From NCBI GenBank assembly GCA_026387175.1, contig JAPLME010000011.1:129856-193855 (forward strand): a stretch of DNA of 64,000 bases, written 5' to 3'. Within the stretch, counting starts at the first letter, position 1. Every line of letters starts with the position of its first letter. The notes beneath the pieces were generated by a model, which saw only the letters and a program-made list of their open reading frames with translations, was not told where the DNA came from and did not search any database. Position numbers and translations under genes: made by a program. Of the stretch, positions 12,721 through 46,459 are shown piece after piece. This DNA comes from Candidatus Omnitrophota bacterium (lineage in GTDB: Bacteria; Omnitrophota; Gorgyraeia; 2-01-FULL-45-10).

Positions 12721-14214
12721 ATGGCACCATTTTTTCTAATAATACCTCTTGCTGCAGCGTTCATAATGACGCTTATATCAAGGACGGACGAGCGCATCAG
12801 GGACGTTTTTGCTATCCTTGTGGCTATTTCACTTCCGGTGCTGTCCATATTAACATTGATGAAGGTGGCAATACCTGCGGGCTCCGTTCTTGTCCATAGG
12901 ATGTCGGGTTTCATGCCGCCGGCAGGGATAGCTTTTGTCGTCGACGGCCTCTCGGCCTTCATGCTCGTCACCGTGAACTCGGTCGCGCTCTTTGTGATCG
13001 TCTATTCGTCCGGCTACATGAAGAAGTATACCGACAAATGGAAATTCTATGCGTTATTCTTCATGATGATCTCCGGAATAAACGGTGTCCTGATAGCTTC
13101 AGATATATTCAACCTGTATGTATTTATGGAGATCGCGGCTATAGCGGCGTACTTCCTTGTGGCGTTCGGCACAGGGGCGGAGGAACTCGAGGCCTCATTC
13201 AAGTATGCGATAATGGGCACCGTCGCCTCCGCGTTCATATTGCTGGGCATAGCCTTCCTCTATGGCTACACTTCGACGCTTAATATGATGGATATGGCTT
13301 CTGTGATATCGACGCTGCCCCAGGTGCGGACCATACAATTTATCAGTGTGCTCTTTCTTATGGGCTTCGGCCTTAAAGCGGCGCTGGTGCCATTCCACGC
13401 ATGGCTTGCGTATGCGCACTCATCTGCTCCGGCACCGGTATCCGCGATGCTGTCGGGCGTCCTGATAAAAGCCCTCGGTATATATGCCATAGCGAGGATA
13501 TTCTTCAGCGTCTTCGGTATGAGCGCCGAGATCTGCCAGATACTCATTGCGCTTGGCGTGCTCTCTATGATCGTCGGGGCCATACTCGCGTTCGGCCAGT
13601 CGGATATTAAAAAAATCTTCGCGTATTCTACAGTGAGCCAGATAGGATATATCTCTCTGGCGTTGGGAGTGGCTACGCCGCTCGCGTTCGTCGGGGCGAT
13701 CTTCCACCTATTTAACCATAGTGCGGTCAAATCTCTTCTGTTCCTGAATTCAGGCTCGATAGAACACATGACAGGGACCAGGGAGCTTAGCAGGATATCG
13801 GGTGTGGTTAAAAACGCGCCGGTTACCGGCTATACGACGCTTTTGGGAGCTCTATCGATCTCAGGCGTGCCGCCATTCGGCGGGTTCTGGTCGAAGCTCA
13901 TAATAATATTCGCCTGTATCCAGGCGGGCCATCCGTTTCTTGCCCTCATCGCCGTTCTGGTAAGCGTTATGACACTGGCTTATTATTTTGTCTCGATGAC
14001 GGGCGTCCTTTTCGGAGTCAAAGCGGATGCCGCAGGTTTCGTGAATAAGATCCATCCGGCGATGAAGGCCGGTGTCATTGCCATGGCCCTTATAGTGCTC
14101 TTTGCGCCGCTTGCGCTTCTTCCGGATGTTAAAAAGATATTGATTGACGGCGCGGTCTCGGTCCTCGTAAACGGAAGGGCTTACGCGGATATGATGCTTG
14201 GAGCGATTAAATGA
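12721..14214 (+). CDS. mrpD: MrpD/NuoN/NuoM-family antiporter-like subunit.
   Basis: 14-TM protein with 'PFHAWLAYAHSSAPAPVSA' and 'STVSQIGYI' motifs. Confidence 0.8.
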   Translation: MAPFFLIIPLAAAFIMTLISRTDERIRDVFAILVAISLPVLSILTLMKVAIPAGSVLVHRMSGFMPPAGIAFVVDGLSAFMLVTVNSVALFVIVYSSGYMKKYTDKWKFYALFFMMISGINGVLIASDIFNLYVFMEIAAIAAYFLVAFGTGAEELEASFKYAIMGTVASAFILLGIAFLYGYTSTLNMMDMASVISTLPQVRTIQFISVLFLMGFGLKAALVPFHAWLAYAHSSAPAPVSAMLSGVLIKALGIYAIARIFFSVFGMSAEICQILIALGVLSMIVGAILAFGQSDIKKIFAYSTVSQIGYISLALGVATPLAFVGAIFHLFNHSAVKSLLFLNSGSIEHMTGTRELSRISGVVKNAPVTGYTTLLGALSISGVPPFGGFWSKLIIIFACIQAGHPFLALIAVLVSVMTLAYYFVSMTGVLFGVKADAAGFVNKIHPAMKAGVIAMALIVLFAPLALLPDVKKILIDGAVSVLVNGRAYADMMLGAIK

Positions 14215-14717
14215 TATTTAACGGTATTCTATTTATTCTCTGGTTCGCTGTATGGATGCTGCTATCGTGGCCGCCCGACGCGAAAAATATTATATCAGGC
14301 GTCCTGGTTTCATTATTTGTTACATTCATGACGAGCGATATCATGCATGTAGGGAGCGCCAAAGAGAGAAGAGCTATAACTTTTTTAGGGCGTCTGGCAT
14401 GTCTGGGGTGGTTCATCTATTACATCTTTGTCTTCCTATGGGAATGCTTTAAGGCTAATATCGATGTCGCTTACAGGGTTATACATCCGGATCTTCCCAT
14501 ATCCCCCGGCACGATAAAAGTCAAAGTCGCCCTCAAGAGCGATATAGGCCTGACATTCCTGGCAAACTCCATAACGCTCACTCCCGGTACGACAAGCGTC
14601 GATGTGGATAAGGAACAGGGTTACCTCTATGTACATATGTTATGTGTGAAGGAAGACCGCGGCAGGCTTAAGATAGTAGATAAATTTGAAAATATACTAA
14701 AGAGGATATTCGAATAA
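14211..14717 (+). CDS. mrpE: MrpE/MnhE subunit.
   Basis: 'ITLTPGTTSVD' is the MnhE signature. Confidence 0.7.
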   Translation: MIFNGILFILWFAVWMLLSWPPDAKNIISGVLVSLFVTFMTSDIMHVGSAKERRAITFLGRLACLGWFIYYIFVFLWECFKANIDVAYRVIHPDLPISPGTIKVKVALKSDIGLTFLANSITLTPGTTSVDVDKEQGYLYVHMLCVKEDRGRLKIVDKFENILKRIFE

Positions 14718-14721
14718 ATTT

Positions 14722-15081
14722 ATGAAGAGGCTTCACTACTTTGCGGGGCTGATAGCCATTATCATAGTTACGGCCGTCATACTCTTCTGTCCGATCGGAT
14801 CGAGCCTCAGGTGGCAGTCGGGATTCCTGGGCCGCGCGTTTTTATGGCTACTGGTTTCCGCAAGCCTGTGCTTATACAGGGTTATGCGGGGCCCGACGGC
14901 TCCGGACAGGGTCGTGGCGATAGATATACTGGGCATTCTGATCGTGGGATTTTGCGCGCTATTAAGCATCGCTACCGGGAGGGATTGGTATCTGGATATA
15001 GGCATAGCGTGGGCGCTTCAGAGTTTTATCGGTATAATGGCCCTATCCAAATACCTGGAAGGAAAAGATTTCGATGAATAA
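14722..15081 (+). CDS. mrpF: MrpF/MnhF subunit.
   Basis: 'MRGPTAPDRVVAID' is the MnhF signature. Confidence 0.7.
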   Translation: MKRLHYFAGLIAIIIVTAVILFCPIGSSLRWQSGFLGRAFLWLLVSASLCLYRVMRGPTAPDRVVAIDILGILIVGFCALLSIATGRDWYLDIGIAWALQSFIGIMALSKYLEGKDFDE

Positions 15082-15409
15082 TACAGCAGGCATTATATTG
15101 ATCGTTGTCGGGCTTATATTCGATTTTTTCGGATGCCTGGGGCTGATACGCTTTCCTGATGTCTATAATCGCCTTCAGGCCGCGACCAAGTGTATTACTC
15201 TCGGTACGTGCGGTATACTCTTAGGGCTGGTATGCTTTAAAGGGCTTTCCGCCACCGGCATAAAAGCGCTGCTCTGTCTCATATTCATAATACTTACCGC
15301 TCCGGTCTCTGCCCATGCGCTTGCGAGAGCGGCATACCGCTCCGGCGTGAAACCCTGGGCGGGTACGGTCGTTGACGAGTACGGTAAGGATATGGATAAA
15401 ATCGGGTGA
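15074..15409 (+). CDS. mrpG: MrpG/MnhG subunit.
   Basis: 'GLIRFPDVYNRLQAATK' is the MnhG signature. Confidence 0.7.
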   Translation: MNNTAGIILIVVGLIFDFFGCLGLIRFPDVYNRLQAATKCITLGTCGILLGLVCFKGLSATGIKALLCLIFIILTAPVSAHALARAAYRSGVKPWAGTVVDEYGKDMDKIG

Positions 15410-15416
15410 GGTGACT

Positions 15417-16019
15417 ATGAATAAAGAAGAGATACGCGAACAGGTCATAGTTATGGCGGATAAGGCTTATCAGATGCTGGAGTTTGTGGAGAAGGGATTT
15501 ATGGAGCATAAGACCGAATTTCTGACCGGCGCGATGGAGCGGGAGAGGGAGCTCAATGAGATGGAGAAGTCCCTCACCCAGAATGTGCTCGATCTTTCGA
15601 AGTCAGCCAAATCCGATAAAGAGAAGAAAGAGCTCGTTATTTTGGAGCAGGTTACCGAGACGCTTGAGAGGATGGGCGATGAGGCCGCGAACCTGGTGGA
15701 GAGGATCGAGATAAAGAACGCCGAGCACCTCCTTTTTAGCGACCTGGGCGTGGCGCAGTTCAATGAGACATATGGCGTTATGAAAAAGTCCGCCGATATG
15801 ATGCGCACCTTTTTGAAAGGCAGGAGCGAGGAATTAAAGGACCGCGTGGTGGATAATGGATTCCAGGTCAAGGCGCTTGTCCAGCGCTACAGGGAAGAAC
15901 ATATGGAACGTCTTGTAAGGGGTATATGCACGCCGATAGCGGCCAACATGTATTTCGACATGCTGGATTTCACCGGTAACCTGGCGCGGCACGCTTCGGC
16001 AATCGTTAAATTATTCTAA
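15417..16019 (+). CDS. PhoU-like / DUF47-like regulatory protein embedded in the hydrogenase operon.
   Basis: A GGTGAGGTGA RBS precedes the ATG at 15417. The protein is an all-helical, coiled-coil-rich ~200 aa with PhoU-like periodicity. The family call is tentative. Confidence 0.4.
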   Translation: MNKEEIREQVIVMADKAYQMLEFVEKGFMEHKTEFLTGAMERERELNEMEKSLTQNVLDLSKSAKSDKEKKELVILEQVTETLERMGDEAANLVERIEIKNAEHLLFSDLGVAQFNETYGVMKKSADMMRTFLKGRSEELKDRVVDNGFQVKALVQRYREEHMERLVRGICTPIAANMYFDMLDFTGNLARHASAIVKLF

Positions 16020-16030
16020 GGCGGTAATAT

Positions 16031-16648
16031 ATGAAGTATCCTAAGCTGAGGGAATTGAAAGAGGCGATCATCGCGCTTGTGAAAGGGCCCTACACCTCCG
16101 ATTATCCTTCGGAGCCGCATCACCCCGCGAAGAGATTTCGCGGAAAGCCGGAATATTCGAATGAAGGCTGCATAGCCTGCACCGCCTGCGCCGCCGTATG
16201 TCCGGTGAGGGCAATCGAATTCCGGGATGTCGTTACTAAAAATAAGGCTACAAGGAAGATGATGCTGCATCTGGACGAGTGCCATTACTGCGGCCAGTGC
16301 AGCGCTCTTTGCACCACGCGTGAGGATGTCCCACCCGGTATAAAGCATACCACCGAGTTCGATCTTGCGGGTTTCGACCGCGCCTCGATGATCTCGGCTA
16401 CCGATGAAAAAGAGCTGGCGTTATGTGAAATATGCGGCGATGTCATTACCGCTAAGGCCCACCTGGCCTGGATCGCCAAAAAACTCGGCCCGCTCGCGTT
16501 CTCGAACCCCACTCTATTCATATCGTCCCTTAAAGGGATGGGATTTGCCGAAGATGTCGCTCAAGGTGCTAAAGAATATGTCTTAAGATCCGACAGGATC
16601 AAGATCCTCTGCTCAAAATGCAGAAGGGTAACGACCATTGAACGATAG
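16031..16648 (+). CDS. NuoI/EchF/MbhN-like 2x[4Fe-4S] subunit.
   Basis: Two ferredoxin-type cluster motifs, 'CIACTACAAVCP' and 'CHYCGQCSALC', and a position consistent with MbhN. Confidence 0.75.
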   Translation: MKYPKLRELKEAIIALVKGPYTSDYPSEPHHPAKRFRGKPEYSNEGCIACTACAAVCPVRAIEFRDVVTKNKATRKMMLHLDECHYCGQCSALCTTREDVPPGIKHTTEFDLAGFDRASMISATDEKELALCEICGDVITAKAHLAWIAKKLGPLAFSNPTLFISSLKGMGFAEDVAQGAKEYVLRSDRIKILCSKCRRVTTIER

Positions 16649-17132
16649 TAAACCCGAACTCCACGATCTAAAAGCGGAACTAAATAACCGGATAAAGGGC
16701 AGGGTCACGATAGCCGGCATAGGCAATATAATGCGCGGCGATGACGGGCTGGGCCCGAAGCTCATCGAATTATTAAAGGCCCGCAACGTCAACGCGGGCC
16801 TCTTCGATTGCGGTACGGCGCCTGAGAACTATATATTCCCGATGCTTAAGAGCCTGTGCGACACGCTTATACTCGTGGATGCCGCTGATATGTCTCTCGA
16901 GCCGGGCGCCTCCAGAGTTCTCGACGTAGATAATATCGTGAATATCAGTTTCTCCACTCACAGCCCGTCTCCCAGGCTCTTCATAGACCTTCTGAAGATG
17001 GGCAGGGAAGACCTTAATATCTTCATAATATCCGTTCAGCCCAAAAATACGTCTTTAGGGATCCCGTTGAGCGAAGAGGTGCTTAAGGGGCTCGAAGCAC
17101 TGACGGGCGTTATTTTAGAAACCTTAACCTGA
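16638..17132 (+). CDS. hycI: Hydrogenase maturation endopeptidase (HycI/HyaD family). TTG start.
   Basis: 'IAGIGNIMRGDDGLGPK' is the GxGNxxxxDDGxG protease signature. Confidence 0.75.
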   Translation: MNDSKPELHDLKAELNNRIKGRVTIAGIGNIMRGDDGLGPKLIELLKARNVNAGLFDCGTAPENYIFPMLKSLCDTLILVDAADMSLEPGASRVLDVDNIVNISFSTHSPSPRLFIDLLKMGREDLNIFIISVQPKNTSLGIPLSEEVLKGLEALTGVILETLT

Positions 17133-19367: not shown

Positions 19368-19380
19368 TAAAATAAGGACC

Positions 19381-19416
19381 GGGTCCTCTACCAATCGGAG
19401 AAGGACCCTTAAAAAT
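19381..19416 (+). terminator. Candidate intrinsic terminator (GGGTCCT-14 nt loop-AGGACCC followed by TTAAAAATT).
   Basis: The hairpin was read from the sequence. The U-tract is weak. Confidence 0.35.
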
Positions 19417-19445: not shown

Positions 19446-19473
19446 TTGACATAATCATCTTATAATATACAAT
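19446..19473 (+). promoter_or_regulatory. Candidate sigma70 promoter (TTGACA-16 nt-TACAAT) upstream of the 1518-aa gene.
   Basis: Read from the sequence in an AT-rich gap. Confidence 0.4.
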
Positions 19474-19537: not shown

Positions 19538-22500
19538 ATGACAAGATCTTCCATATCTATCAGATTAGTATCCATTGTTTTGGCCGCAACCTTTATTACA
19601 GGTCAGGTTTCTGCTGGTCAAATCTCGTCAAATTCTTCCAATAATACGCTTGCTGCCCCAGTTGTATCAGGTGATATAGATCCTGCAAGAAGCGCCGATG
19701 TCAAAAAAGCTGTTGCCGGAACAGCTAAGCCGGGAGCTATCGGAAACGGTATCCCGTTATTGAAATTAGCGGAAGGGGCATTACCGCCTAGAATAGTTTT
19801 TCCGGCACCGGATGGCATGGTGGAACGTACGGCTATTGAGAAAATAATATATAAAAGGATACAGCTGGCCATAGATAGATGCGTTGAAGATAAAGCCCAG
19901 GTCCGCGACATACATCGGAAAAGATTCGAAGGGGCTCTGGATAATTTAATCGATTTGCGGAATAGGCTTTCACAAAGACTCTATTTATATAACGCTGATA
20001 TTATGGGTCCCGAAGATTATTTGCTGGGATTTAATTTTCAGGAGTATTGTGGTTTATCGCTTGATTTTATGGAATGGGTTGAAGAAAAACATTTTCCAGA
20101 TGTAGGCCTCGCCGCGCGTTTAATCGCCCAATATATATTTCATGAATGCGTTCCCGAAAAAGGCATAATAACCGAAAGAGACGACCACAGGGCTGTATAT
20201 AATGAGATTCAGTCTGATATATTTGGGAAGGATGAGGTGTTTGCTCTAAAGAAAGATTTGCGGGAATTTATAAATGAGAAAGTCAGTGAAATGCCTGCAA
20301 TTGGAGCGGGTCAAGCATTAAACAAAATATCCGCGGGTCAAATAAGAATTGGCAGCGCAACCATCGGTATCCTTCAAGGCGATATCACGCAAGTGCCTGC
20401 TGAAGCGGTTGTTCCGGGAATTAATAATATCATGAATGTCGGGATAGGTGTTACCGGCGCAATTAGTAGAGTCATAGGGTATGAGAACGAAGGTGAAGTG
20501 TTCCCATCACCAGAAGCTGTGACAGGAAAGAGCGCCTTTAGAGTAGGGGATGTGTATGCGGCCCCTCTTGGAAATATACAGACTGCAGCCGGATGGAAAT
20601 ATGTTATCAGCGCTATAATCCATAGTGGCCGGCCATGGAGTTATCCGACCGAAGAAAGTATCAGAGCTTCGACTAAGAATGCCCTGATAGAAGCCAGTAA
20701 AAGAAAAGTTCAATCAATAACATTTCCTGCTCTTGGCGCGGGTGCGTTACGAATGGATTTTAATACATCGGCAAGATCGATGTACGCTGGAATCAGGGAA
20801 TTCCTGGCAGAGAACCCGGAAACAAGCTTAAGAGATATTAAGATAGTGCTTTCTGACGCTCCCGCTGTGGCGCCGTTCAGACAGGAACTGATGAAGCTTG
20901 CGGAATCCGCAAAGAATATATCGCCGGAGCAAGCTGAAATTAAATTAAAATCAGCTTCTCTAAAAAACAAGACAATCGAAATAGTAAAAGTGATGGCAAG
21001 AGATGGTAAGGCGGATGTAAGGCCAATTATTGAATTAGCGCGGCAAATATATCCAAATTTTGATTCCCACATATCTGAGAGCCAATGGCCATCTGTTACG
21101 CCGAAAATGTTTACTATTTTGAATTTAGCGCTAAAGTATCAGGTTTATCTGCCCAATAATGAAATATTCGAAATAGCGCGAATTTCTGAAATGCCTGACG
21201 TAGTCAGGGGGAGAATCAAGGGAGGGCTTTGGCGGGAGCAGGGTTATTTAAAGTCAAAATCAAAAATATGGATCGCTGAAAGTTCGCCGACCGAAGAGGG
21301 TTACTCATCTCTCGGATTAGAAGCAGGCTGGTTTGCCATTGTTAACGTCGATTGTTTCAGGGAGGCCGGTAAGGAATGGTACCGGCAGCATTTTAAGCAA
21401 TCGACACTTAGTTCAGGCGGAAGCTATACGAGCCCTTACGAGATGGTAATGATACCGCTCGTGCAAACGGCGCGAATCGAAGAAGATGACTTTGTCGAGG
21501 GTATTTATGTAGAACATGCGCGCCAGGAAGCGATCAGGCGCGCCCAGGACAAGGCATATGCGGCCCAAAGATTAGGGAGGGATAACAGATTCGATCTTGA
21601 TAAAGACGGACAGACAGTTTCGAAAATATTAAAACCGGATTCGCTGTTAAAAGAGAGAGCATTAAATCATTTAGACCAACAAGTTGCGGGCAGTAAGGCG
21701 GCCGCCGAATTAGATTGGCAAGTAAGCTTGCGAACCGTAATAGAATATTCGGCCATGCTCGGCGGGGCTATCGCGGAAATGAAGAAACATATAGCCGATG
21801 GGCAGGAAGAATTGGCATACCTTGCTTTTCTGAATTTTATGGAATATCAATTCTTATACGCGAACCCGAAGCAAATGCCGGGCGACAGTATTTTTAGATT
21901 AACCCGTCTTAAGGCTGCGCTTTTGTTTTTTCGGGATATCGATGAATGGTCGGGAAAAGAATTAAAACATGATTCGATGGATATTTTAAATGAGCTGGGG
22001 ACAAAGTATGGGAAAATGCCGGCTGCTGAGAAGTCCTTGATAATGCTTGAGGAAATTTACGCGAAACATTTTTGGACAGACGATGAACGATATGACCGTT
22101 TGTCTTCCGAACCTTTTGAATTACCGGGTCCTTTCCCAGTTAATTATTCCGAAACAACATCGACAGTGTCATATAACGATGTTAAAGAAAAAGGTGATTT
22201 CGAAATAGATTTTGACGCGATGGAAAGAAAGCTCTTCCCTGTTTTGTCGGAAGAACGTGCAGGAGAAATAGGTGCAATGTTACAACAGCGCTTGCTATTA
22301 AAGACAATGCTTTCGCATCTGCGAACAGAAGACGAAAAAATAGCCGGTGGACAGATGCAATCCAGCAAGATATTCGATATTTATAGAAAGCAATATAACT
22401 TAAGCAAGCGGGGGTATCTTGACGCACTTCGACTCTATAGCGACCTACTGGCCGGAAAGAGCGCAGCAAGTCATCAAGGCGTGGAAGATGAATCGAAGCA

Positions 22501-24094
22501 ACGTTTGGATGCTAGTAAAGCGGCTCTTGCTCAGGCAATTGCGAGGATCGTGTTATTCAATGGCGCCCTTTCCCGGCCCAGATACTGGTATGTGAAAAAA
22601 CAAAATGAAATAATTATTGAAAAAGATGAGGATTCCGTACTTTACGTCACAAATAACAGTAGTATATATTATATATTAAGAGCCGCGAATTTACAGAAGG
22701 GGGATGTTATTCTGGATGCTTTCAGTGGCTCTGGCGGTATCCTTAGCTTCCTGAGTTTGGAAATGGCGCCCAAAACCATTATCGCCGCGGACATAAAATA
22801 TGGAACGCCTGAAGAAGGGGAAAAAACCTACGCGATAAATAAAAACCTTGAAGGAGTAAAACATTTATTTGATTTTTTACCCCAAACATTAAGGCCTATT
22901 TTAAGAGATATTACTATTTTAAAACAGGATTCCGCCTATATGGCATTGCCGGATTCCTCTGTCGATAAAATTATCGCTGATCCCCCCTTCGGGCGTAATG
23001 AAAAAGATGACAAATATCCCGATGAGATAAGAGCTTTTTTGCTTTTTCTTCGAAATTTAAAAGAATTTCACAGAGTTTTAAAAAGTGGCGGTGCCGTATT
23101 CTGTCATATGCCTATGACATGGAAAGAGTCACTGGAAGATTTTGAAAAGATAGATTTGTCACGCGCATCACCAGAGAGTTTATACAGCCAATTTTACACC
23201 CGCCTCGAGAAATATTATAAGGCGAGAGGCTGTCAACTTCCCTCATATGAATATAAGTCCGAAGACTGGAATATGGTAAAAGATATTCTCCAAAAGATTA
23301 TTTTCGATAAAAAAATATTTGAATTGCAAGCTGTGGATATGGAGCAGGGCGCCTTAACAGTGATCAAGCTGTTAAAGCCGCAAAAAGTAAATCCAGCGGT
23401 ATTATCAGCCAAAGAAGGCATAGATGAGAAGCATATAGAAGCTGCCGATAGTTTTGTTCGAATTTCCGAAGATCTGCCTGTCCGCGCCAAAGAGTTTGAA
23501 TTTAATCTTACCAAAATATTAGCCGATCATCCCGATCAGCTCTTTTTCATAGGGATTGAAAACGACATAGGAGAATCACAAAAGGCGCAAATCATGCCGA
23601 TATATCATGCTATCGATGAGATTCGAGACATGAAAGATGCTAGCGAAAAACCCCTCTTTCCTAATCTTATGGTAAAAAGATCAAGCGCAAAAGATCTTAC
23701 GGCTATGGTAAACGATCTTAATAAAGAAGGAAAGCTAAAACTCAATAATGCGTTCATTTGTGCTAAAAAAGCCAGCGTAGAGAATAAATTATACTACCTT
23801 ATAGAAGGAGAAGGCAGGGCATGGATTTCGGCAATAGATGATTTATTAAGAGAAGGTGATTATCTGCCCGTATTCGAAGCTATAACCTTGAATATGATGG
23901 CATATCTTAATGCCGATTTAACTGCCATCAAGAATTTCTATGATGCGATATCAGGTGAGTCAAAAAGCCCAGGCGAATTGCAAGACATGATAAAGAATAG
24001 AATAATCTATATTCTGCCTAAAGCTACCAAACTTGATGCTGGACAGCTTAGGAAACTATACGAACTGGCTAAAAAGGCCTACACGTCAGCGTAA
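19538..24094 (+). CDS. Large secreted multidomain protein with an N-terminal signal peptide, a macro (ADP-ribose-binding) domain and a class-I SAM-dependent methyltransferase domain.
   Basis: Signal peptide 'MTRSSISIRLVSIVLAATFITGQVSA'. Macro signature 'GDITQVPAEAVV...GVTGAIS...ITFPALGAGA'. MTase motif I 'VILDAFSGSGG' and motif IV 'IADPPFG'. Confidence 0.6.
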   Translation: MTRSSISIRLVSIVLAATFITGQVSAGQISSNSSNNTLAAPVVSGDIDPARSADVKKAVAGTAKPGAIGNGIPLLKLAEGALPPRIVFPAPDGMVERTAIEKIIYKRIQLAIDRCVEDKAQVRDIHRKRFEGALDNLIDLRNRLSQRLYLYNADIMGPEDYLLGFNFQEYCGLSLDFMEWVEEKHFPDVGLAARLIAQYIFHECVPEKGIITERDDHRAVYNEIQSDIFGKDEVFALKKDLREFINEKVSEMPAIGAGQALNKISAGQIRIGSATIGILQGDITQVPAEAVVPGINNIMNVGIGVTGAISRVIGYENEGEVFPSPEAVTGKSAFRVGDVYAAPLGNIQTAAGWKYVISAIIHSGRPWSYPTEESIRASTKNALIEASKRKVQSITFPALGAGALRMDFNTSARSMYAGIREFLAENPETSLRDIKIVLSDAPAVAPFRQELMKLAESAKNISPEQAEIKLKSASLKNKTIEIVKVMARDGKADVRPIIELARQIYPNFDSHISESQWPSVTPKMFTILNLALKYQVYLPNNEIFEIARISEMPDVVRGRIKGGLWREQGYLKSKSKIWIAESSPTEEGYSSLGLEAGWFAIVNVDCFREAGKEWYRQHFKQSTLSSGGSYTSPYEMVMIPLVQTARIEEDDFVEGIYVEHARQEAIRRAQDKAYAAQRLGRDNRFDLDKDGQTVSKILKPDSLLKERALNHLDQQVAGSKAAAELDWQVSLRTVIEYSAMLGGAIAEMKKHIADGQEELAYLAFLNFMEYQFLYANPKQMPGDSIFRLTRLKAALLFFRDIDEWSGKELKHDSMDILNELGTKYGKMPAAEKSLIMLEEIYAKHFWTDDERYDRLSSEPFELPGPFPVNYSETTSTVSYNDVKEKGDFEIDFDAMERKLFPVLSEERAGEIGAMLQQRLLLKTMLSHLRTEDEKIAGGQMQSSKIFDIYRKQYNLSKRGYLDALRLYSDLLAGKSAASHQGVEDESKQRLDASKAALAQAIARIVLFNGALSRPRYWYVKKQNEIIIEKDEDSVLYVTNNSSIYYILRAANLQKGDVILDAFSGSGGILSFLSLEMAPKTIIAADIKYGTPEEGEKTYAINKNLEGVKHLFDFLPQTLRPILRDITILKQDSAYMALPDSSVDKIIADPPFGRNEKDDKYPDEIRAFLLFLRNLKEFHRVLKSGGAVFCHMPMTWKESLEDFEKIDLSRASPESLYSQFYTRLEKYYKARGCQLPSYEYKSEDWNMVKDILQKIIFDKKIFELQAVDMEQGALTVIKLLKPQKVNPAVLSAKEGIDEKHIEAADSFVRISEDLPVRAKEFEFNLTKILADHPDQLFFIGIENDIGESQKAQIMPIYHAIDEIRDMKDASEKPLFPNLMVKRSSAKDLTAMVNDLNKEGKLKLNNAFICAKKASVENKLYYLIEGEGRAWISAIDDLLREGDYLPVFEAITLNMMAYLNADLTAIKNFYDAISGESKSPGELQDMIKNRIIYILPKATKLDAGQLRKLYELAKKAYTSA

Positions 24095-24096
24095 TT

Positions 24097-24122
24097 AAAA
24101 AATAGGGACAGTCCCTATTTTT
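24097..24122. terminator. Bidirectional intrinsic terminator (A6-TAGGGA-CAG-TCCCTA-T5).
   Basis: Perfect palindrome flanked by A- and T-runs, 3 nt after the stop codon. Confidence 0.65.
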
Positions 24123-41100: not shown

Positions 41101-41154
41101 CATCGGCCCATCCGCGATTTATACTGATTACTGTAGATGGTTAATATCTGATCT

Positions 41155-41252
41155 ATGACATATAGGGGAGGTCGCGTTACGGCCTGAGAGTTCCGCTAGA
41201 GCGGATTACCCGATGAACCTGACCTGGATAATGCCAGCGTAGGGAGTAGAAG
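41155..41252 (+). promoter_or_regulatory. TPP (thiamine pyrophosphate) riboswitch aptamer (THI element).
   Basis: 'GGGGAGGUCGCG...GGCCUGAGAG...ACCCGAUGAACCUGACCUGGAUAAUGCCAGCGUAGGGAG' matches the THI-box consensus (CUGAGA, ACCUGAUCUGGAUAAUGCCAGCGUAGGGA). It lies upstream of a Thi4 gene. Confidence 0.85.
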
Positions 41253-41264
41253 TAATTTTATATA

Positions 41265-41424: not shown

Positions 41425-42198
41425 ATGAAACTGGATGAGATCAAGATTTCTAAGGCGATAATAGAGACCTATAATGACAAGCTTATAAAGGCTCTGGACG
41501 TCGATGTGGCCATCGTGGGCGCCGGGCCGGCAGGCATGGTCTGCGCATACTATCTGGCGAAGGCGAAGAAGCACGTCGTCATGTTCGAGAGAAAGCTGTC
41601 GGTGGGCGGCGGCATGTGGGGCGGCGGCATAATGTTCAATGAGATAGTTGTCCAGGAAGAGGCTAAAGAGATCCTGGATGAGCTCGGCGTCAGGACTCGG
41701 AAGTATGACAGCGATTACTATCTGTCGGATTCGATCGAAGCGGTGTCCACCATCTGTTCGAAGACGGTAAAGGCCGGCGCCCAGATCTTCAATCTTATAA
41801 GTGCCGAAGACATCATGATCAGACAGAAGAGGGTATGCGGGCTCGTCCTGAACTGGACGGCAGTCGAGATGGCAAAGCTTCACGTGGACCCCATCACGAT
41901 GAGGGCGAAATATGTCGTAGATGCTACGGGCCACGCCACCGAAGTCGCGCGCATCATCGAGAGAAAGTCCGGCATAAGCCTTAAGACCAAGACAGGCAAG
42001 ATCATGGGCGAGGGCTCTATGTGGGCGGATGTCGCCGAAAATATGACATTGAAGAATTCCAAGGAAGCCGCACCGGGCTTCTACGTCTGCGGCATGGCCG
42101 CCAACGCGGTATTCGGCGGACCGAGAATGGGCCCGATATTCGGAGGCATGCTCCTCTCCGGCAGGAAGGTGGCTAAAGACCTGATCAAGTTACTGTAG
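41425..42198 (+). CDS. thi4: Thiazole synthase, Thi4 family.
   Basis: '[19 protein letters not shown]' FAD-binding N-terminus. The ~257-aa Thi4 architecture. A TPP riboswitch lies upstream. Confidence 0.8.
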
Positions 42199-42247: not shown

Positions 42248-42282
42248 CAAACATGTGTGGTAAAATTTATCACACATGTTTG
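42248..42282. promoter_or_regulatory. 12-bp perfect inverted repeat (CAAACATGTGTG-N11-CACACATGTTTG) that encloses the start codon of the downstream gene.
   Basis: Read from the sequence. The ATG at 42276 lies in the 3' arm. Confidence 0.4.
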
Positions 42283-45200
42283 CCTATAGAACCACGCATA
42301 GCATATCACTAAAAGTTATAGCAATAGGCATGGTGTGCCTATTCTGCACGAACATAGTTGTCCTAGCCAACACAGATATCCTCGCTCCTATCGTCGGAAA
42401 TCCAGAAGTCTACAAAGCGATGCAGGGCATGATGGAAGAGCGGCTTGCTGTCCAGCAGAAACCGGCAAGTGAGCCATTTCAGCCAGAATTTGCGCTCAAA
42501 TTGCCGATCATTAAAATCGATCAGCCCGGCGCAGTTATATTTAACCCAAAGCTCAACTTCGTCCAGGGTAAGTCTTTGGACACCACCCTTATTAATACAA
42601 CGCGTTCTGCAGAAGAAGTGCGGGCGCTTTTAAAAAATATGCCGCGAGGCACGAAGCTCTTTATTAAGGGCCATCTCAGAGGCGTTGACGGCCCCGGCTC
42701 ATCTCTTGATTTGCCGGAATTCCAGATAAAACTTACGCCCCAGGGTAGTGTATTAATAGAACAGATCCCCTCCACTCCAACCCTTGCCAGCGAATTCAGT
42801 GTTACGGTACAGTTTGAGCTTCTGCCGGACAAAGATGATAGTGATGTGATCGAATACGTAGCTCCGGACTATGGCATTACCCAGGAGAAGCCCTACAGGG
42901 TTAAAGGCGGCGTCAAACTTAATACTGCCACTGAGGATACACCATGGGAGACGACGCCGAACGGCCAAAAGGACGGACCTGCGTTTATATTCCGGAACGT
43001 ATTCGGCCTCGGCGGTATACGCATAATCTGCGCGGATACTGACGCGATGGCTTTAGCCGGCGGTATGGAGTCGTCCAATGTATTTAATGTCGCTCTGATA
43101 GCCGCCGCGAGTATGTTAAGCGGCGCTAATCTATCGCAGGCAGATATATTCAGCCTCGCAGTGAAGCTTGAAAATAATGAATTTAAAGGATTGACGGGCG
43201 GTCAGGGACATCTTTGCTGTATGCTCGGAGGCGCTTACAGGCATTTATGGCTTTCGGGCCTGACCGACAATGCGGGTGAGTTGGTTAATCCTTATGCTGC
43301 GCTTTCAGTGCCATTTCTATCCGAGGGTCAGCTTAGCGCGATCGAGGATCACATGTTCCTCGTGCAGGCCGGAAAAGAATTCGAGAACGGCGAACCTAAG
43401 GTCAAGCGGACGGCATCCCTGATCAATTATATGTGGACCGACTTATTGAGGTATAACGATGCGGAAGGTTTAAGACTGCATCAGCAGAAGATAGCGCTCG
43501 CCGGGCAGTACACAAAGGCTCTGCAGGAAGGGAAATTCGAAGATGCGGTAACTGCCGTGAATAGATATGTTGATATCAGGGATGAACTGTGCCGCCGATG
43601 GATGGGCCTGGTGATAGATCATCATCTCGGTAGAGATGCGCCAGAATATGTGAAAAAATATTTTGCGCCGAAGGTTTTTGATAGATCGAACGAATATTAT
43701 GAGTTCTACGATGTGGTAAGGAATGTAATAAATAAGATGGACGAGCGCAGGGCAGAAGGCGCGCAAGACTATGAGACAATAGCGAAGAATACAAGTTTTT
43801 ATACTTACGAAGGCACAGGCGTTCTCGTGCAGAAAGCCAGGAAAGAGGGGATAGCTATCATGCCTCTGGGCGCCGGCGGGCCCGGAGCCAATCTTGTCGC
43901 GATATCTGCCCGTGGAAGCGCTCACCTGAAGAGTTTCCTGGAGCGGGAGGGCATATGGCAGTTTACGGCTGAAAAAGCCGAAGAGGCCAAGAAGATAATA
44001 AGAGGGTTTATAAAAACCGGAACGATCAGAGGATATATGCAGTTCAAGGTCGGCCGGGAAGGGCTAAAGATAGGCGGATTCGACAGCCTCACCGGCATTC
44101 GAGTGCCTGAAGGGCCGGTGCAGCTATCCAAGGTAGTCGGAACCAAAGCGGCGCCGGACTGGTGGTTAAAGAGGCAGATGGGCGGGATACTCTGCCCTCT
44201 CTTTTCTGGGAAGCGGCAAGGCGACCAGGGGATTGGCGATCTGAAGTGGCTTGAATCTTTCATCGATTTCATGTCGAAGCAGGACGCCGATTTTCTTGTG
44301 CAGCTGCCGACCACACAGATAAATCCGACCGATTCCTGCCCATATGTCAGCATAAGCTTATTTGCCAATAACGCTATCTGTTATCTCCCTCTCGACGAAC
44401 TTATTTCAGCTAAAGAAATGAGTAATTATCAGAAAGAGTTTGTGAAGATGTCCGCCGATGCGGATATGGCAAAAAAGTTAAACTCCGCTCTATCCGCCCA
44501 GAAAATAGACTACGCGATTATCGTGCCGTATAAAGAATATTGTCTGCGCCAGGAATTTGAGAAGTTGTATCCCGGCATCGCCCTAGGCGATAATTCGGGA
44601 TTCAATGCTTACGTGAAAGAGAATAAAGACTGGATAGAAGATTACTCTCTCTTCCACTCCTTATTAAATTATCACAACGGCCGGGCATGGTGGGAGTGGG
44701 ATCGTCAATATAAGGAAAGGGATGCTGAAGCGCTTAAGGCGTATAGTCAAAAAAATAAGAAAGAGATCCTATTTTATCAATATCTCCAGTGGCTATATTA
44801 CTCACGCTGGCAGAAGGTACGCGCGTATTCCCGCGAGAAAAACAAATTTATTATAGGCGATGCGCCTATATATCCTGCGCCTAATAGCGCGGATGTCTGG
44901 GTGAATCAGGATATCTTCGATATGGCCAAGAACGCAGGCGCGCCTGCCGAGCCCATAGCTCCCGACGGACAAAATTGGGGAACGCATCCTTACAGATGGG
45001 ACGAAAACTACTATAAAGTGATCGGATTCTGGGAGAAGCGCATAAGATATATGGCGCGATTCTATGATGGAATAAGAATAGATCATCTGCTCGGTTTGTG
45101 CTCGGAGTGGCTTATAGATGTCGGCCAGCATCCTAAGACAGGAAAATTTTATCCTGAATCTCTGGAAGCAGGGGCTGCGATGGGCGAGAAGATCCTCCGC

Positions 45201-46235
45201 CACCTGGCAAAAGCAGCCGAAGAAGAAAATATACTGCTTATCGGCGAAGATATAGGCTATAGAGACCATATTATAAGGGAGATGATAGATAACCTCTCGC
45301 TGGAACTGCCGAATCTATTTTTATATAATCCCGTTGGCTGGCGGCAAAAACATATGGCTAATAGGCCCCATACCATGGTCGTGGACGCGACACATGACAC
45401 GCCGGCCACATTTGCCGAGCGTTATGACGGATTGCATGATGGGGACCGCGGTCAGGTGAGAGACTTTTTAGATGTGCACGGCATTCAACCGGTTTCCGAA
45501 GACGCAAACCATATGGAAGAGCAAGTTATCGCGGCAATGGAAAGGGAGAGTTTTTATTGCCTCACTTTGCAGACAATAGTGGGAGAAAGAGATGCGCAAG
45601 TAAATGTACCTGGCGAAGTAGGGCCGCATAACTGGTCGTGGCGGGCGCCGCCGGTGGAAGAACTTTTAAAAATGGAGCACCTCGGTTATTTCCCGAAGCC
45701 GGCCAGTGCCACAAAAGAAGTTATAGGGGCGCTTCCGCAGGAATGGCTAAATGATGGGAATAAATTCAATGCCGCCGAATTCATTAAATATCTATCCAGC
45801 CTTCCTCGCAATAATAATAGAATCCTCGAACAAGATAAAACAGCATTTATATTTTCAGAAAACGTCACCTTCGCTAATGGCTTGGGGGTGCTCTTACCGA
45901 AATTAGTTAAATCCGGTATGAAAGTGGCGGTAATAGCTACCAATGACAAGGAGAGGGCGTTGATCGACGAGTTAAATCAAAATAAACCTGATGATGAAAG
46001 AATAATTTATGCTGACACAATCATTGAGGCAAGAATAAAGGCCAAAACGGCAAGGTATTATTACTTTAAAGTTAATGGCGATCCTGATACGGATTTGTAT
46101 AACGTCACTACATTCGATATAACGGACATAGTTAAGAAGATAATAGATGCTATAGGCAAAGTCAGCGGCATAGTGGAGCGCGAGAGGCTGGAGCTTCTCC
46201 ATGAGGCGGCCCGGAAATTCGCGCAAGCCGCATAA
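42276..46235 (+). CDS. Fusion protein with an N-terminal GHMP-family sugar kinase domain and a C-terminal GH77 4-alpha-glucanotransferase (amylomaltase, MalQ-like) domain.
   Basis: GHMP motif II 'AGGMESSNVFNVALIAAAS' and motif III 'MPLGAGGPGANLVAIS'. GH77 motifs 'GGILCPLFS...GIGDL', 'GDAPIYPAPNSADVW' and 'IRIDHLLGL'. Confidence 0.65.
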   Translation: MFAYRTTHSISLKVIAIGMVCLFCTNIVVLANTDILAPIVGNPEVYKAMQGMMEERLAVQQKPASEPFQPEFALKLPIIKIDQPGAVIFNPKLNFVQGKSLDTTLINTTRSAEEVRALLKNMPRGTKLFIKGHLRGVDGPGSSLDLPEFQIKLTPQGSVLIEQIPSTPTLASEFSVTVQFELLPDKDDSDVIEYVAPDYGITQEKPYRVKGGVKLNTATEDTPWETTPNGQKDGPAFIFRNVFGLGGIRIICADTDAMALAGGMESSNVFNVALIAAASMLSGANLSQADIFSLAVKLENNEFKGLTGGQGHLCCMLGGAYRHLWLSGLTDNAGELVNPYAALSVPFLSEGQLSAIEDHMFLVQAGKEFENGEPKVKRTASLINYMWTDLLRYNDAEGLRLHQQKIALAGQYTKALQEGKFEDAVTAVNRYVDIRDELCRRWMGLVIDHHLGRDAPEYVKKYFAPKVFDRSNEYYEFYDVVRNVINKMDERRAEGAQDYETIAKNTSFYTYEGTGVLVQKARKEGIAIMPLGAGGPGANLVAISARGSAHLKSFLEREGIWQFTAEKAEEAKKIIRGFIKTGTIRGYMQFKVGREGLKIGGFDSLTGIRVPEGPVQLSKVVGTKAAPDWWLKRQMGGILCPLFSGKRQGDQGIGDLKWLESFIDFMSKQDADFLVQLPTTQINPTDSCPYVSISLFANNAICYLPLDELISAKEMSNYQKEFVKMSADADMAKKLNSALSAQKIDYAIIVPYKEYCLRQEFEKLYPGIALGDNSGFNAYVKENKDWIEDYSLFHSLLNYHNGRAWWEWDRQYKERDAEALKAYSQKNKKEILFYQYLQWLYYSRWQKVRAYSREKNKFIIGDAPIYPAPNSADVWVNQDIFDMAKNAGAPAEPIAPDGQNWGTHPYRWDENYYKVIGFWEKRIRYMARFYDGIRIDHLLGLCSEWLIDVGQHPKTGKFYPESLEAGAAMGEKILRHLAKAAEEENILLIGEDIGYRDHIIREMIDNLSLELPNLFLYNPVGWRQKHMANRPHTMVVDATHDTPATFAERYDGLHDGDRGQVRDFLDVHGIQPVSEDANHMEEQVIAAMERESFYCLTLQTIVGERDAQVNVPGEVGPHNWSWRAPPVEELLKMEHLGYFPKPASATKEVIGALPQEWLNDGNKFNAAEFIKYLSSLPRNNNRILEQDKTAFIFSENVTFANGLGVLLPKLVKSGMKVAVIATNDKERALIDELNQNKPDDERIIYADTIIEARIKAKTARYYYFKVNGDPDTDLYNVTTFDITDIVKKIIDAIGKVSGIVERERLELLHEAARKFAQAA

Positions 46236-46431: not shown

Positions 46432-46459
46432 TGTCTTGCAATGAAAAGTGAGACAGGAC

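What the first reader, a model, noticed from the sequence alone, without database searches (positions are those of the whole stretch)
19538..24094. 1518-aa secreted protein combining a macro domain and a DPPF-type SAM methyltransferase
A clear signal peptide is followed by about 250 aa of unknown sequence, a macro (ADP-ribose-binding/processing) domain (GDITQVPAEAVV...GVTGAIS...FPALGAGA), about 700 aa of helical unknown sequence, and a class-I methyltransferase with motif I VILDAFSGSGG and motif IV IADPPFG (amino-methyltransferase type). Both domains normally act on intracellular nucleotides or nucleic acids. An exported fusion of the two is unusual. It could be an effector that modifies ADP-ribosylated targets, or a surface enzyme. 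The gene has its own promoter and terminators and no obvious partner genes.
Basis: partly seen in the sequence, partly recalled or inferred. Interest (0 to 1): 0.55.

Follow-up and report, generated by a model that had tools for sequence, protein, structure and literature searches.

The report
Exported enzyme with conserved bookend modules
This gene encodes a macro-domain plus methyltransferase protein that belongs to an apparently undescribed Omnitrophota family, in which a signal peptide, a conserved N-terminal module and a conserved C-terminal module bracket interchangeable, normally cytoplasmic enzymes, including most of glycolysis.

Summary
ORF 19538-24094 encodes 1518 aa with a signal-peptide-like N-terminus, an Af1521-like macro domain (aa 270-452) and a DPPF amino-methyltransferase (aa 1037-1207).

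The "unknown" first 250 aa and last 225 aa are the conserved parts. They define an Omnitrophota-restricted family:
- 235 representatives at 50% clustering.
- Architecture: signal peptide, N-module, variable middle, C-module.
- The C-module always sits at the extreme C-terminus, with a Y-x-[AS]-A tail.

The middle is swappable cargo. In relatives it is acetate kinase, transaldolase, PFK, aldolase, TIM, GAPDH, PGK, enolase, FBPases, radical SAM, HAD or helicase. A 478-aa member has no cargo.

Neither module matches Pfam, NCBIfam, PHROGs or PDB sequences, and Foldseek finds no related fold, despite confident models.

Cargo copies keep catalytic motifs but are diverged paralogues. A canonical gap-pgk-tpiA cluster sits beside one family gene.

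Best reading: a Sec-exported modular protein whose bookends give a common post-export fate, with cargo acting on host or prey material. Export and function are inferred, not shown. A membrane-tethered cytoplasmic scaffold is the main rival.

Preprints describe signal-peptide-bearing multi-enzyme giant proteins in this phylum, but not this bookended family.

The parts
19446..19473 (+). Promoter-like site, TTGACA-16 nt-TACAAT, about 65 nt upstream of the start codon
   Evidence: 11 of 12 consensus matches. Promoter-like sites overall are not enriched over shuffles, so this is only suggestive.
19538..24094 (+). Complete ORF of 1518 aa plus the TAA stop
   Evidence: The identical protein is P0001 in NCBI and was assembled independently in another run.
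19538..19615 (+). Predicted Sec-type signal peptide, aa 1-26 (MTRSSISIRLVSIVLAATFITGQVSA|GQ)
   Evidence: it is the only hydrophobic segment in the protein. Full-length close homologues have the same n/h/c layout, with Ala at -1 in nearly all; 91 of 120 long Met-initiated family members are signal-peptide-like. Cleavage is inferred; SignalP was not run.
19622..20290 (+). N-module, aa 29-251. It consists of a conserved linear motif (..LA.P.VS.D..P.RS...PGAIGNG.PL..LA.G.LP) followed by a folded helical domain with a 3-4-stranded sheet. The folded part carries EDYLLGFN and the putative metal site Q-Y-x-x-H-E-C-x-P-E ... D-D-H.
   Evidence: 95 copies; H202 in 87 of 95, E207 in 90 of 95, H217 in 90 of 95. 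AF2 pLDDT 82.7, core above 90. No match in Pfam, PDB sequences, or by Foldseek against PDB or the viral library.
20345..20893 (+). Macro domain (Af1521/MacroD-like), aa 270-452
   Evidence: The GDIT Asp and the Asn of the 'NAAN' position are kept. The glycine loops are altered: GIGV in place of GGGV and GAGALR in place of SAGIYG.
20900..22645 (+). Unassigned region, aa 455-1036. The cassette aa 468-866 is shared with P0002, P0003 and P0176. Aa 867-1036 is seen only in this protein.
   Evidence: No Pfam, NCBIfam or PHROGs match.
22646..23158 (+). Class I SAM-dependent amino-methyltransferase, aa 1037-1207, with motif I before motif IV (DPPF)
23417..24091 (+). C-module, aa 1294-1518: an alpha/beta domain that ends the protein. 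It has an acidic [DE]-x-D-x-G at the end of strand 1, (I)DD at the end of strand 4, Y-x-P-x-x-E, and the tail Y-T-S-A.
   Evidence: ends within 2 residues of the C-terminus in 138 of 160 proteins; last residue Ala in 123 of 141; conservation over 123 copies. AF2 pLDDT 79.9. No match in Pfam, PDB sequences, Foldseek, PHROGs or plasmids.
24097..24122 (.). Perfect palindrome AAAAAATAGGGAC-A-GTCCCTATTTTT immediately after the stop codon, resembling a bidirectional terminator
   Evidence: Read directly from the sequence. It was not listed by the consensus scan, probably because the loop is short.

Best explanation
The gene encodes a soluble, Sec-exported, modular protein of an Omnitrophota-specific 'bookended' family.

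Shown:
- The family architecture is signal peptide, N-module, exchangeable enzyme cargo, and an invariantly terminal alpha/beta C-module.
- Here the cargo is an Af1521-like macro domain, a roughly 580-aa unassigned region and a DPPF amino-methyltransferase.
- The bookends, not the enzymes, are the conserved core.

Inferred:
1. The N-terminal segment is a cleaved Sec signal (VSA|GQ), so the whole protein leaves the cytoplasm.
2. The N- and C-modules give all family members one common post-export fate. This could be recognition by a shared secretion or attachment machinery, or assembly on the cell surface. The strictly terminal C-module with its conserved tail would act as the sorting or docking element, analogous in logic to a T9SS C-terminal domain or an autotransporter domain.
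3. The cargo acts on substrates of host or prey origin, where ATP, NAD, SAM and ADP-ribosylated or nucleic-acid targets exist. This fits the epibiotic, predatory or parasitic lifestyle proposed for the phylum.
4. In this member the macro domain would bind or remove ADP-ribose-type groups, and the MTase would methylate an exocyclic or amide nitrogen on nucleic acid or protein.
For: Family and architecture:
- Homologues share only aa 1-250 (39-52% identity) and aa 1309-1518 (55-69% identity), with different middles.
- An exhaustive profile search gives 235 representatives, with the C-module always terminal.
- All named members are Omnitrophota.

Cargo diversity:
- Searches show acetate kinase, transaldolase, PFK, aldolase, TIM, GAPDH, PGK, enolase, FBPases, IMPase, dehydrogenases, radical SAM, HAD, MTases, RNA cyclase and helicases.
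- The minimal member P0108 is signal peptide + N-module + C-module with no cargo.
- Cassette shuffling is seen for macro, region X and the MTase.

Export:
- Conserved n/h/c signal-peptide layout with Ala at -1.
- 91 of 120 long members are signal-peptide-like.
- The target has no other hydrophobic segment.
- A distant subfamily that lacks the N-module still keeps a signal peptide and the C-module.

Accessory, not housekeeping:
- A canonical gap-pgk-tpiA cluster lies beside a family gene. Its PGK scores E 5e-162 against 1.6e-52 for the cargo PGK.
- Cargo GAPDH and TIM are only 46-48% identical to the canonical ones, yet they keep SCTTN, GHSE and EPVWAIG.

Context:
- Omnitrophota long proteins with signal peptides and multi-enzyme content are reported, with an extracellular effector reading.
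- RNA from the cultured predator V. archaeovorus is found inside prey cells.
- Other large signal-peptide-like proteins with cytoplasmic-type enzymes lie in the same window, such as the GH77 protein.
Against: - No experiment and no dedicated predictor (SignalP, DeepTMHMM) was available, so export is inferred.
- Much of the cargo needs ATP, NAD(P), SAM or an Fe-S cluster. P0018 keeps CxxxCxxC and a tandem member carries a J-domain. These are hard to reconcile with Sec export of unfolded chains into a periplasm.
- No secretion-system or partner gene is linked to family genes in about 12 independent loci.
- The conserved acidic and His/Glu/Cys residues in both bookends look more like ligand or catalytic sites than passive sorting tags.
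- The macro domain's glycine loops are degenerate, so its activity is uncertain.
Confidence: 0.5

Rival explanations
1. Membrane-tethered or scaffolded cytoplasmic enzymes. On this reading the N-terminal hydrophobic segment is an uncleaved anchor or is not used for export. The N- and C-modules would be assembly domains that gather many metabolic and nucleic-acid enzymes into a membrane-associated multi-enzyme body (a metabolon) or an internal compartment.
For: - The cargo is overwhelmingly cytoplasmic-type and cofactor-dependent.
- The radical SAM cargo keeps its cluster motif, and a J-domain occurs in a tandem member.
- P0038 strings TIM, GAPDH and FBPase in one chain, like a pathway module.
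- The 2026 preprint first floated an intracellular-cluster reading for such proteins.
Against: - The hydrophobic core is short (about 13-15 residues) and is followed by a conserved small-x-Ala site. Positive charges lie on its N-terminal side, which predicts that the bulk of the protein is translocated.
- Canonical unbookended gap, pgk and tpiA genes exist in the phylum, and the cargo copies are much more diverged.
- The preprint's own topology survey argued against the intracellular reading.
Confidence: 0.2
2. The bookends are themselves the working enzymes: the N-module a metal-dependent hydrolase, the C-module a Mg-dependent alpha/beta enzyme or ligand binder. They would act on the host envelope or a common substrate, and the middle domains would be accessory specificity or regulatory modules.
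For: - Near-invariant H-E-C-x-P-E...D-H in the N-module, and [DE]-x-D-x-G, DD and Y-x-P-x-x-E in the C-module.
- The N-module is repeated 2-4 times in some proteins with little cargo between copies.
- A cargo-free member exists (P0108).
- The C-module is more conserved than any cargo.
Against: - No fold or sequence link to any known enzyme family.
- The motif is lost in some members. For example, P0022 has FRMAIPE.
Confidence: 0.15
3. Polymorphic toxin-like interbacterial effector or anti-phage/restriction-modification-type protein: a macro domain plus a DNA methyltransferase acting in genetic conflict.
For: - The MTase region is closest to the mad2 defence methyltransferase and to Type II MTase models.
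- Macro domains occur in conflict systems (established knowledge).
- The modular, cassette-swapping organisation recalls polymorphic toxins.
Against: - No nuclease, immunity, DarT or other partner gene is adjacent.
- A signal peptide is not expected for a defence MTase.
- The variable part lies in the middle, not at the C-terminus.
- Cargo in relatives is central metabolism, not toxins.
- The bookends have no PHROGs or plasmid matches.
Confidence: 0.07

Closest known systems
Omnitrophota long or giant multi-enzyme proteins ('Archaeovorin-type'; bioRxiv 10.1101/2023.11.21.568195 and 10.64898/2026.06.07.730766)
   Same: Same phylum. N-terminal signal peptides. Polypeptides tiled with methyltransferase, HAD, radical SAM, NUDIX, kinase and sugar-metabolism domains plus HEAT scaffolding. 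Function unresolved, with an extracellular effector reading favoured.
   Different: Those proteins are 10,000-147,000 aa, usually with many TM helices, and lie next to T2SS/pilus loci. This family is 0.5-4.7 kaa and mostly lacks TM segments. It is defined by two specific conserved modules that the passages read do not mention. Whether giant proteins carry these modules was not tested.
C-terminal sorting domains of two-step secretion (T9SS C-terminal domain cargo; autotransporters)
   Same: The logic is the same: a Sec signal at the N-terminus plus a conserved domain at the extreme C-terminus, shared by otherwise unrelated cargo.
   Different: The T9SS C-terminal domain is an approximately 80-100-aa beta-sandwich found in Bacteroidota. 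Autotransporter domains are beta-barrels ending in an aromatic residue. This C-module is a roughly 210-aa alpha/beta domain ending in Y-x-A-A. No cognate machinery is known.
Polymorphic toxin / effector families
   Same: Conserved trafficking or scaffold parts combined with cassette-like exchange of enzymatic domains among paralogues.
   Different: The variable cassette is internal and both ends are conserved. The cargo is metabolic enzymes rather than toxins. No immunity genes are present.
Chlamydial secretion of glycogen-metabolism enzymes into the inclusion (established knowledge, not checked here)
   Same: A precedent from the PVC group for exporting ordinary metabolic enzymes to work outside the bacterium in a host-derived compartment. 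This window also encodes a signal-peptide-like GH77 (MalQ-type) protein.
   Different: Chlamydiae use type III secretion signals, not Sec plus bookend modules. No sequence relationship is known.
Af1521/MacroD macro domains and gamma-class DPPF/Y amino-methyltransferases (N6_N4_Mtase, UPF0020/RlmKL-Trm11, mad2)
   Same: Significant sequence matches. The adenine-contacting Asp (GDIT), the conserved Asn, motif I and motif IV are present.
   Different: Those are stand-alone cytoplasmic proteins. Here they are embedded in an exported bookended frame. The glycine loops of the macro domain are altered, and the substrates are unknown.

Membership tests
Macro domain (PF01661, Af1521/MacroD type) | Profile match above the curated threshold over the whole domain | tested here: met
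   40.8 bits against a cut-off of 22, positions 4-117 of 118. Af1521 E 7e-11 over 170 residues.
Macro domain (PF01661, Af1521/MacroD type) | ADP-ribose pocket motifs: Asp of GDIT, Asn of NAAN, the GGG(V) loop and the G-[IV]-[YF]-G loop | tested here: inconclusive
   The Asp and Asn are present. The loops read GIGV and GAGALR. Binding is plausible. Hydrolase activity cannot be judged from sequence.
Class I SAM amino-methyltransferase (N6_N4_Mtase / UPF0020) | Motif I (SAM-binding G-x-G) and motif IV (D/N-P-P-F/Y), with profile scores above cut-off | tested here: met
   VILDAFSGSGG and IADPPFG. 28.2 bits against 26.7 and 25.6 against 22.3. mad2 E 6.5e-15.
Class I SAM amino-methyltransferase (N6_N4_Mtase / UPF0020) | Defined substrate (DNA, RNA or protein) | not testable with these tools
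   The best matches split between DNA MTases and RNA m2G-type models.
Sec-dependent secreted protein | N-terminal n/h/c signal peptide with a -3/-1 small-residue site and no further TM segment | tested here: met
   Manual and hydropathy analysis. No SignalP run and no experiment.
Omnitrophota bookended family (defined here) | N-module directly after the signal peptide (GAIGNG.PL, EDYLLGFN, HEC.PE...DH) | tested here: met
   aa 29-251, domain E 1.8e-84 against the family profile.
Omnitrophota bookended family (defined here) | C-module at the extreme C-terminus with a Y-x-[AS]-[AV] tail | tested here: met
   aa 1294-1518, E about 1e-101 to 1e-107, tail YTSA.
Archaeovorin-type giant proteins | Giant size (tens of kaa), many TM helices, adjacency to a T2SS/pilus locus | tested here: not met
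   1518 aa, no TM segment beyond the signal peptide, housekeeping neighbours. It works like them in domain repertoire but is not a member.
T9SS C-terminal-domain cargo / autotransporter | C-terminal beta-sandwich domain or beta-barrel | tested here: not met
   The AF2 model is an alpha/beta three-layer domain. No Foldseek match.
Polymorphic toxin system | Variable C-terminal toxin with an adjacent immunity gene | tested here: not met
   The variable part is internal. No small conserved downstream gene.
Methylation-associated defence / RM system | MTase encoded together with nuclease or other system components | tested here: not met
   Only the MTase-domain similarity is present. The neighbours are folate-pathway-type genes, a TonB-dependent receptor and lpxB.

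The most novel reading that the evidence does not exclude
Omnitrophota may possess a dedicated, previously unrecognised protein-sorting system. In it, a Sec signal together with a novel N-module and a novel, strictly C-terminal alpha/beta module route a whole toolkit of active cytoplasmic-type enzymes out of the cell. That toolkit includes nearly complete glycolysis and gluconeogenesis, phosphatases, kinases, and nucleic-acid and ADP-ribose-modifying enzymes such as this one. The destination would be the cell surface or the host or prey cell, so that part of metabolism is run outside the producer.
Probability: 0.3. Interest if true: 0.85.

Novelty: new variant of a known kind. Interest (0 to 1): 0.66.

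Why it matters
Omnitrophota are widespread, ultra-small, largely uncultured bacteria thought to live on or prey upon other microbes. What their many signal-peptide-bearing multi-enzyme proteins do is an open question.

This family offers a tractable handle on it:
- Its proteins are of ordinary size. Many carry just one or a few recognisable enzyme domains.
- Two conserved, unannotated modules can be used as search keys, as fusion tags for localisation tests and as bait for the unknown machinery.

If export is real, it would mean systematic externalisation of central metabolism and of nucleic-acid and ADP-ribose chemistry by a bacterium. It would also reveal a new C-terminal sorting domain.

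If export is not real, the family would point to a new way of scaffolding metabolism at a membrane.

Either way, two new domain families (about 220 aa each) deserve description.

Tried and rejected
2. Profile searches of both modules against PDB sequences, Pfam (per member, E up to 10), NCBIfam (via the full-length protein), PHROGs and plasmids found nothing.
3. A zincin-like reading of the N-module (an HExxxE...H motif, with weak hits to zinc peptidases and IrrE) is not supported statistically. It is kept only as an idea.
4. A HAD, receiver or GT-A-like reading of the C-module (DxD at strand 1, DDSxxG at strand 4) was rejected as a membership claim. Foldseek returned none of these abundant folds.
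5. A word-index search with the C-module alignment returned only short fragments. Pattern scans of genome and metagenome contigs returned only 4 and 8 loci, so the neighbourhood statistics rest on about 12 independent loci.
6. The search for conserved partner genes found only a recurrent Y1 transposase-like gene, in 4 loci. It is absent from this window.
7. The defence or restriction-modification reading was rejected for lack of partner genes.
8. No paralogue of either module exists elsewhere in the 64-kb window.

Full report
**Observation**

The ORF at 19538-24094 (+) is real and encodes 1518 aa. The identical protein is deposited as a macro domain-containing protein of a Candidatus Omnitrophica MAG on a 206-kb contig. 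It was also assembled independently from another sequencing run with the same neighbours.

Profile searches confirm both domain calls.
- Macro domain: PF01661, E 2.4e-10, above the gathering score. NCBIfam ADP-ribose-binding protein, E 1.2e-16. Af1521 structures, E 7e-11 over aa 269-438.
- Amino-methyltransferase: N6_N4_Mtase and UPF0020 both score above their cut-offs. PADLOC mad2 gives E 6.5e-15 over aa 1037-1207. Motif I is VILDAFSGSGG and motif IV is IADPPFG.

The N-terminus has a positive n-region, a 13-15-residue hydrophobic core and VSA|GQ. It is the only hydrophobic segment in the protein.

A strong promoter-like site lies at 19446-19473. A perfect palindrome flanked by A and T runs follows the stop codon at 24097-24122.

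The neighbours are housekeeping genes: aminodeoxychorismate synthase and lyase-type genes, a TonB-dependent receptor, lpxB and an ABC exporter.

The gene's G+C content (0.42; 0.39 in the MTase and C-module) is below that of its flanks (0.48-0.49).

Database homologues, all from Omnitrophota, do not share the macro or MTase domains. They share aa 1-250 at 39-52% identity and aa 1309-1518 at 55-69% identity, and their middles differ.

I call these two regions the N-module and the C-module.

An exhaustive profile search with the C-module over 1.84 billion representatives found 235 proteins, 108 of them at E <= 1e-30. Across the 160 retrieved proteins that matched the C-module profile:
- The C-module ends within two residues of the C-terminus in 138 of 160.
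- The last residue is Ala in 123 of 141 complete tails, position -2 is Ala or Ser in 119, and position -4 is Tyr in 94.
- 91 of 120 long Met-initiated proteins have a signal-peptide-like N-terminus. Many of the exceptions are visibly truncated.

The N-module follows the signal peptide directly and can recur internally. P0017 has four copies.

A more distant subfamily lacks the N-module but still has a signal-peptide-like N-terminus (...VVWA|DP) and the C-module.

All members that carry a source name are Candidatus Omnitrophota. Two genome records titled 'uncultured Planctomycetia' also carry the family.

**Cargo**

The middle of these proteins is a swappable set of enzymes that are normally cytoplasmic.
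- Glycolysis, gluconeogenesis and the pentose-phosphate pathway: PFK, class II aldolase, TIM, GAPDH, PGK, a mutase-type His phosphatase, enolase, three FBPase types (GlpX, FBPase_3 and the IMPase family), and transaldolase (E 7e-94).
- Other metabolism: acetate kinase (E 4e-100), mannitol dehydrogenase, Glu/Leu dehydrogenases, PfkB, PIG-L with NagB-like, and an FAD oxidoreductase.
- Cofactor-dependent and phosphoesterase domains: HAD, PHP, radical SAM (with or without a B12-binding domain), and SAM methyltransferases.
- Nucleic-acid enzymes: RNA 3'-phosphate cyclase and ResIII/DEAD helicase.
- Others: a GH5 cellulase, HEAT and TPR repeats.

P0038 carries TIM, GAPDH and FBPase_3 in one chain. 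P0108 (478 aa) is signal peptide + N-module + C-module with no cargo at all.

The target's own cargo is a mosaic of cassettes:
- The macro cassette recurs in P0032, which is signal peptide + N-module + macro + C-module, and in P0177 and P0002.
- The region aa 468-866 recurs in P0002, P0003 and P0176.
- Relative to P0002, the target carries an extra segment (aa 867-1309) that contains the MTase.
- The macro-X-MTase combination is a singleton.

**The bookends are unannotated domains**

AlphaFold2 with family alignments gives confident models.
- The C-module has pLDDT 79.9 and is a five-stranded alpha/beta sandwich.
- The N-module has pLDDT 82.7 with a core above 90. It is a helical domain with a small sheet, preceded by a conserved but unstructured linear motif that includes GAIGNG.PL.

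Neither module matches anything in these searches:
- Pfam, NCBIfam or PHROGs.
- PDB sequences by profile.
- PDB folds by Foldseek, or viral folds for the N-module.
- Plasmids, for the C-module.

Both modules carry strongly conserved polar residues.
- N-module, 95 copies: Q198 in 94, H202 in 87, E203 in 81, C204 in 78, E207 in 90, H217 in 90.
- C-module, 123 copies: D or E at 1341 in 120, D1343 in 91, D1434 in 102, D1435 in 118, Y1442 in 120, P1444 in 123, E1447 in 122.

By the predicted secondary structure, the acidic residues of the C-module sit at the C-terminal ends of strands 1 and 4. That is where Rossmann-like domains bind metals or phosphates. I could not verify spatial clustering because model coordinates are not exposed.

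**Are these the housekeeping enzymes?**

Probably not.
- In locus L004, an Omnitrophota MAG, a canonical gap-pgk-tpiA cluster lies directly downstream of a family gene. Its PGK scores E 5e-162, while the cargo PGK of P0152 scores 1.6e-52.
- Cargo GlpX, PFK, aldolase and enolase also score far below what these families usually give.
- Cargo GAPDH and TIM are 46-48% identical to the canonical Omnitrophota enzymes. They still keep the catalytic SCTTN, GHSE and EPVWAIG motifs.
- The radical SAM cargo keeps CxxxCxxC.

The cargo therefore looks like diverged but probably active paralogues of the phylum's own enzymes. I could not show both versions of the same enzyme in a single genome.

**Context**

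No partner gene is conserved across about 12 independent loci.

Family genes sometimes lie in tandem.
- In L005 a 3,599-aa J-domain (DnaJ) protein that ends in a C-module sits directly upstream of P0017.
- In L003 the 2,109-aa ORF next to the family gene has only a weak partial C-module match (E 4e-7).

A divergent Y1 (IS200-like) transposase-type gene is adjacent in four loci, but none lies in this window.

**Literature**

Two preprints describe Omnitrophota giant proteins with signal peptides or TM helices, tiled with methyltransferase, HAD, radical SAM, NUDIX, kinase and sugar-metabolism domains.
- The 2026 preprint concludes from topology predictions that such content lies on the periplasmic or extracellular face and leaves the function open.
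- The 2023 preprint proposes cell-wall-targeting 'Archaeovorins'.

Seymour et al. 2023 argue for host-dependent lifestyles across the phylum. A 2026 paper shows RNA of the cultured predator V. archaeovorus inside dead prey cells.

None of the passages I read, and no full-text search, mentions the bookend modules or signal-peptide-bearing single glycolytic enzymes.

**Interpretation**

The best-supported reading (confidence about 0.5) is as follows.
1. The protein is Sec-exported.
2. The bookends give every family member a common post-export fate. The strictly terminal C-module would be the sorting or docking element.
3. The cargo works on host- or prey-derived substrates.
4. In this member that means ADP-ribose-type groups for the macro domain and an amino or amide nitrogen of nucleic acid or protein for the MTase.

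Steps 1-4 are inferred. Only the architecture, its conservation and the cargo diversity are shown.

The main rival (about 0.2) is a membrane-tethered cytoplasmic scaffold or compartment. The cofactor needs of the cargo favour it. The signal-peptide geometry and the existence of canonical enzyme copies argue against it.

A non-exclusive alternative (about 0.15) is that the bookends are themselves enzymes.

Defence or toxin readings are unlikely (0.07 or less).

**Verdict**

It is an entry point to an apparently undescribed, phylum-specific family of bookended exported enzymes, built around two new domains.

Noticed in passing
window 42276-46235 (+): A 1319-aa protein with a GH77 4-alpha-glucanotransferase (MalQ-type) domain at aa 647-1125 (E 6e-84). 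It has a 646-aa unannotated N-terminal extension and a signal-peptide-like start (…CTNIVVLA|NTDILAP). This is another normally cytoplasmic enzyme behind an export signal, but it has no N- or C-module.
   Followed up: partly
window 46448-58987 (+): A 4179-aa ORF with RHS repeats and a Peptidase C39 domain at aa 3120-3207. Its N-terminus (…FLWQQILWA|GD) resembles the signal-peptide type of the distant C-module subfamily. C39 domains in Omnitrophota giant proteins were noted by West-Roberts et al.
   Followed up: partly
family-wide; window 24080-24091: The conserved C-terminal tail Y-[LTIV]-[AS]-A (here YTSA) resembles the end of the E. coli ssrA degradation tag (…YALAA). It could be a degron for protein that fails to be exported, or a PDZ-type recognition motif. 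This was not tested.
   Followed up: no
L006 13322-13801, L014 548-1228, L003 17075-17671, L013 6075-6557: Divergent Y1 (IS200/RAYT-like) transposase-type genes, only 26-39% identical to each other, lie next to family genes in four independent loci. None is present in this window. This could relate to cassette mobility or could be coincidence.
   Followed up: partly
L004 10713-14655: A canonical gap-pgk-tpiA cluster lies immediately downstream of a bookended family gene whose cargo is a degenerate Glu/Leu dehydrogenase-like domain.
   Followed up: yes
L005 1-9940 and 10001-15166; L003 7823-17027: Family genes occur in tandem. In L005 a 3,599-aa J-domain (DnaJ) protein ending in a C-module sits directly upstream of P0017. 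In L003 the second ORF (2,109 aa) has only a weak partial C-module match (E 4e-7).
   Followed up: partly
window 19538-24094 versus flanks: The gene's G+C content is 0.42 (0.39 in the MTase and C-module parts), against 0.48-0.49 in the 10 kb on either side. The 58-60 kb region is lower still (0.37).
   Followed up: no
window 41154-41262 (+): A TPP riboswitch (68 bits) lies upstream of ORF 41425-42198, whose N-terminus has a dinucleotide-binding GxGxxG motif (VGAGPAG).
   Followed up: no
window 12721-17132 (+): A cluster of Mrp/complex-I-like antiporter subunits (Proton_antipo_M, MnhE), a PhoU-domain protein, a 4Fe-4S protein and a HycI-type hydrogenase maturation protease. This suggests a membrane-bound hydrogenase or Mrp-type complex.
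   Followed up: no
window 19374-19396: A GC-rich hairpin (AGGAC-CGG-GTCCT) sits just after the upstream gene's stop codon. The scan scored it as terminator-like only on the minus strand, where no convincing gene ends.
   Followed up: no
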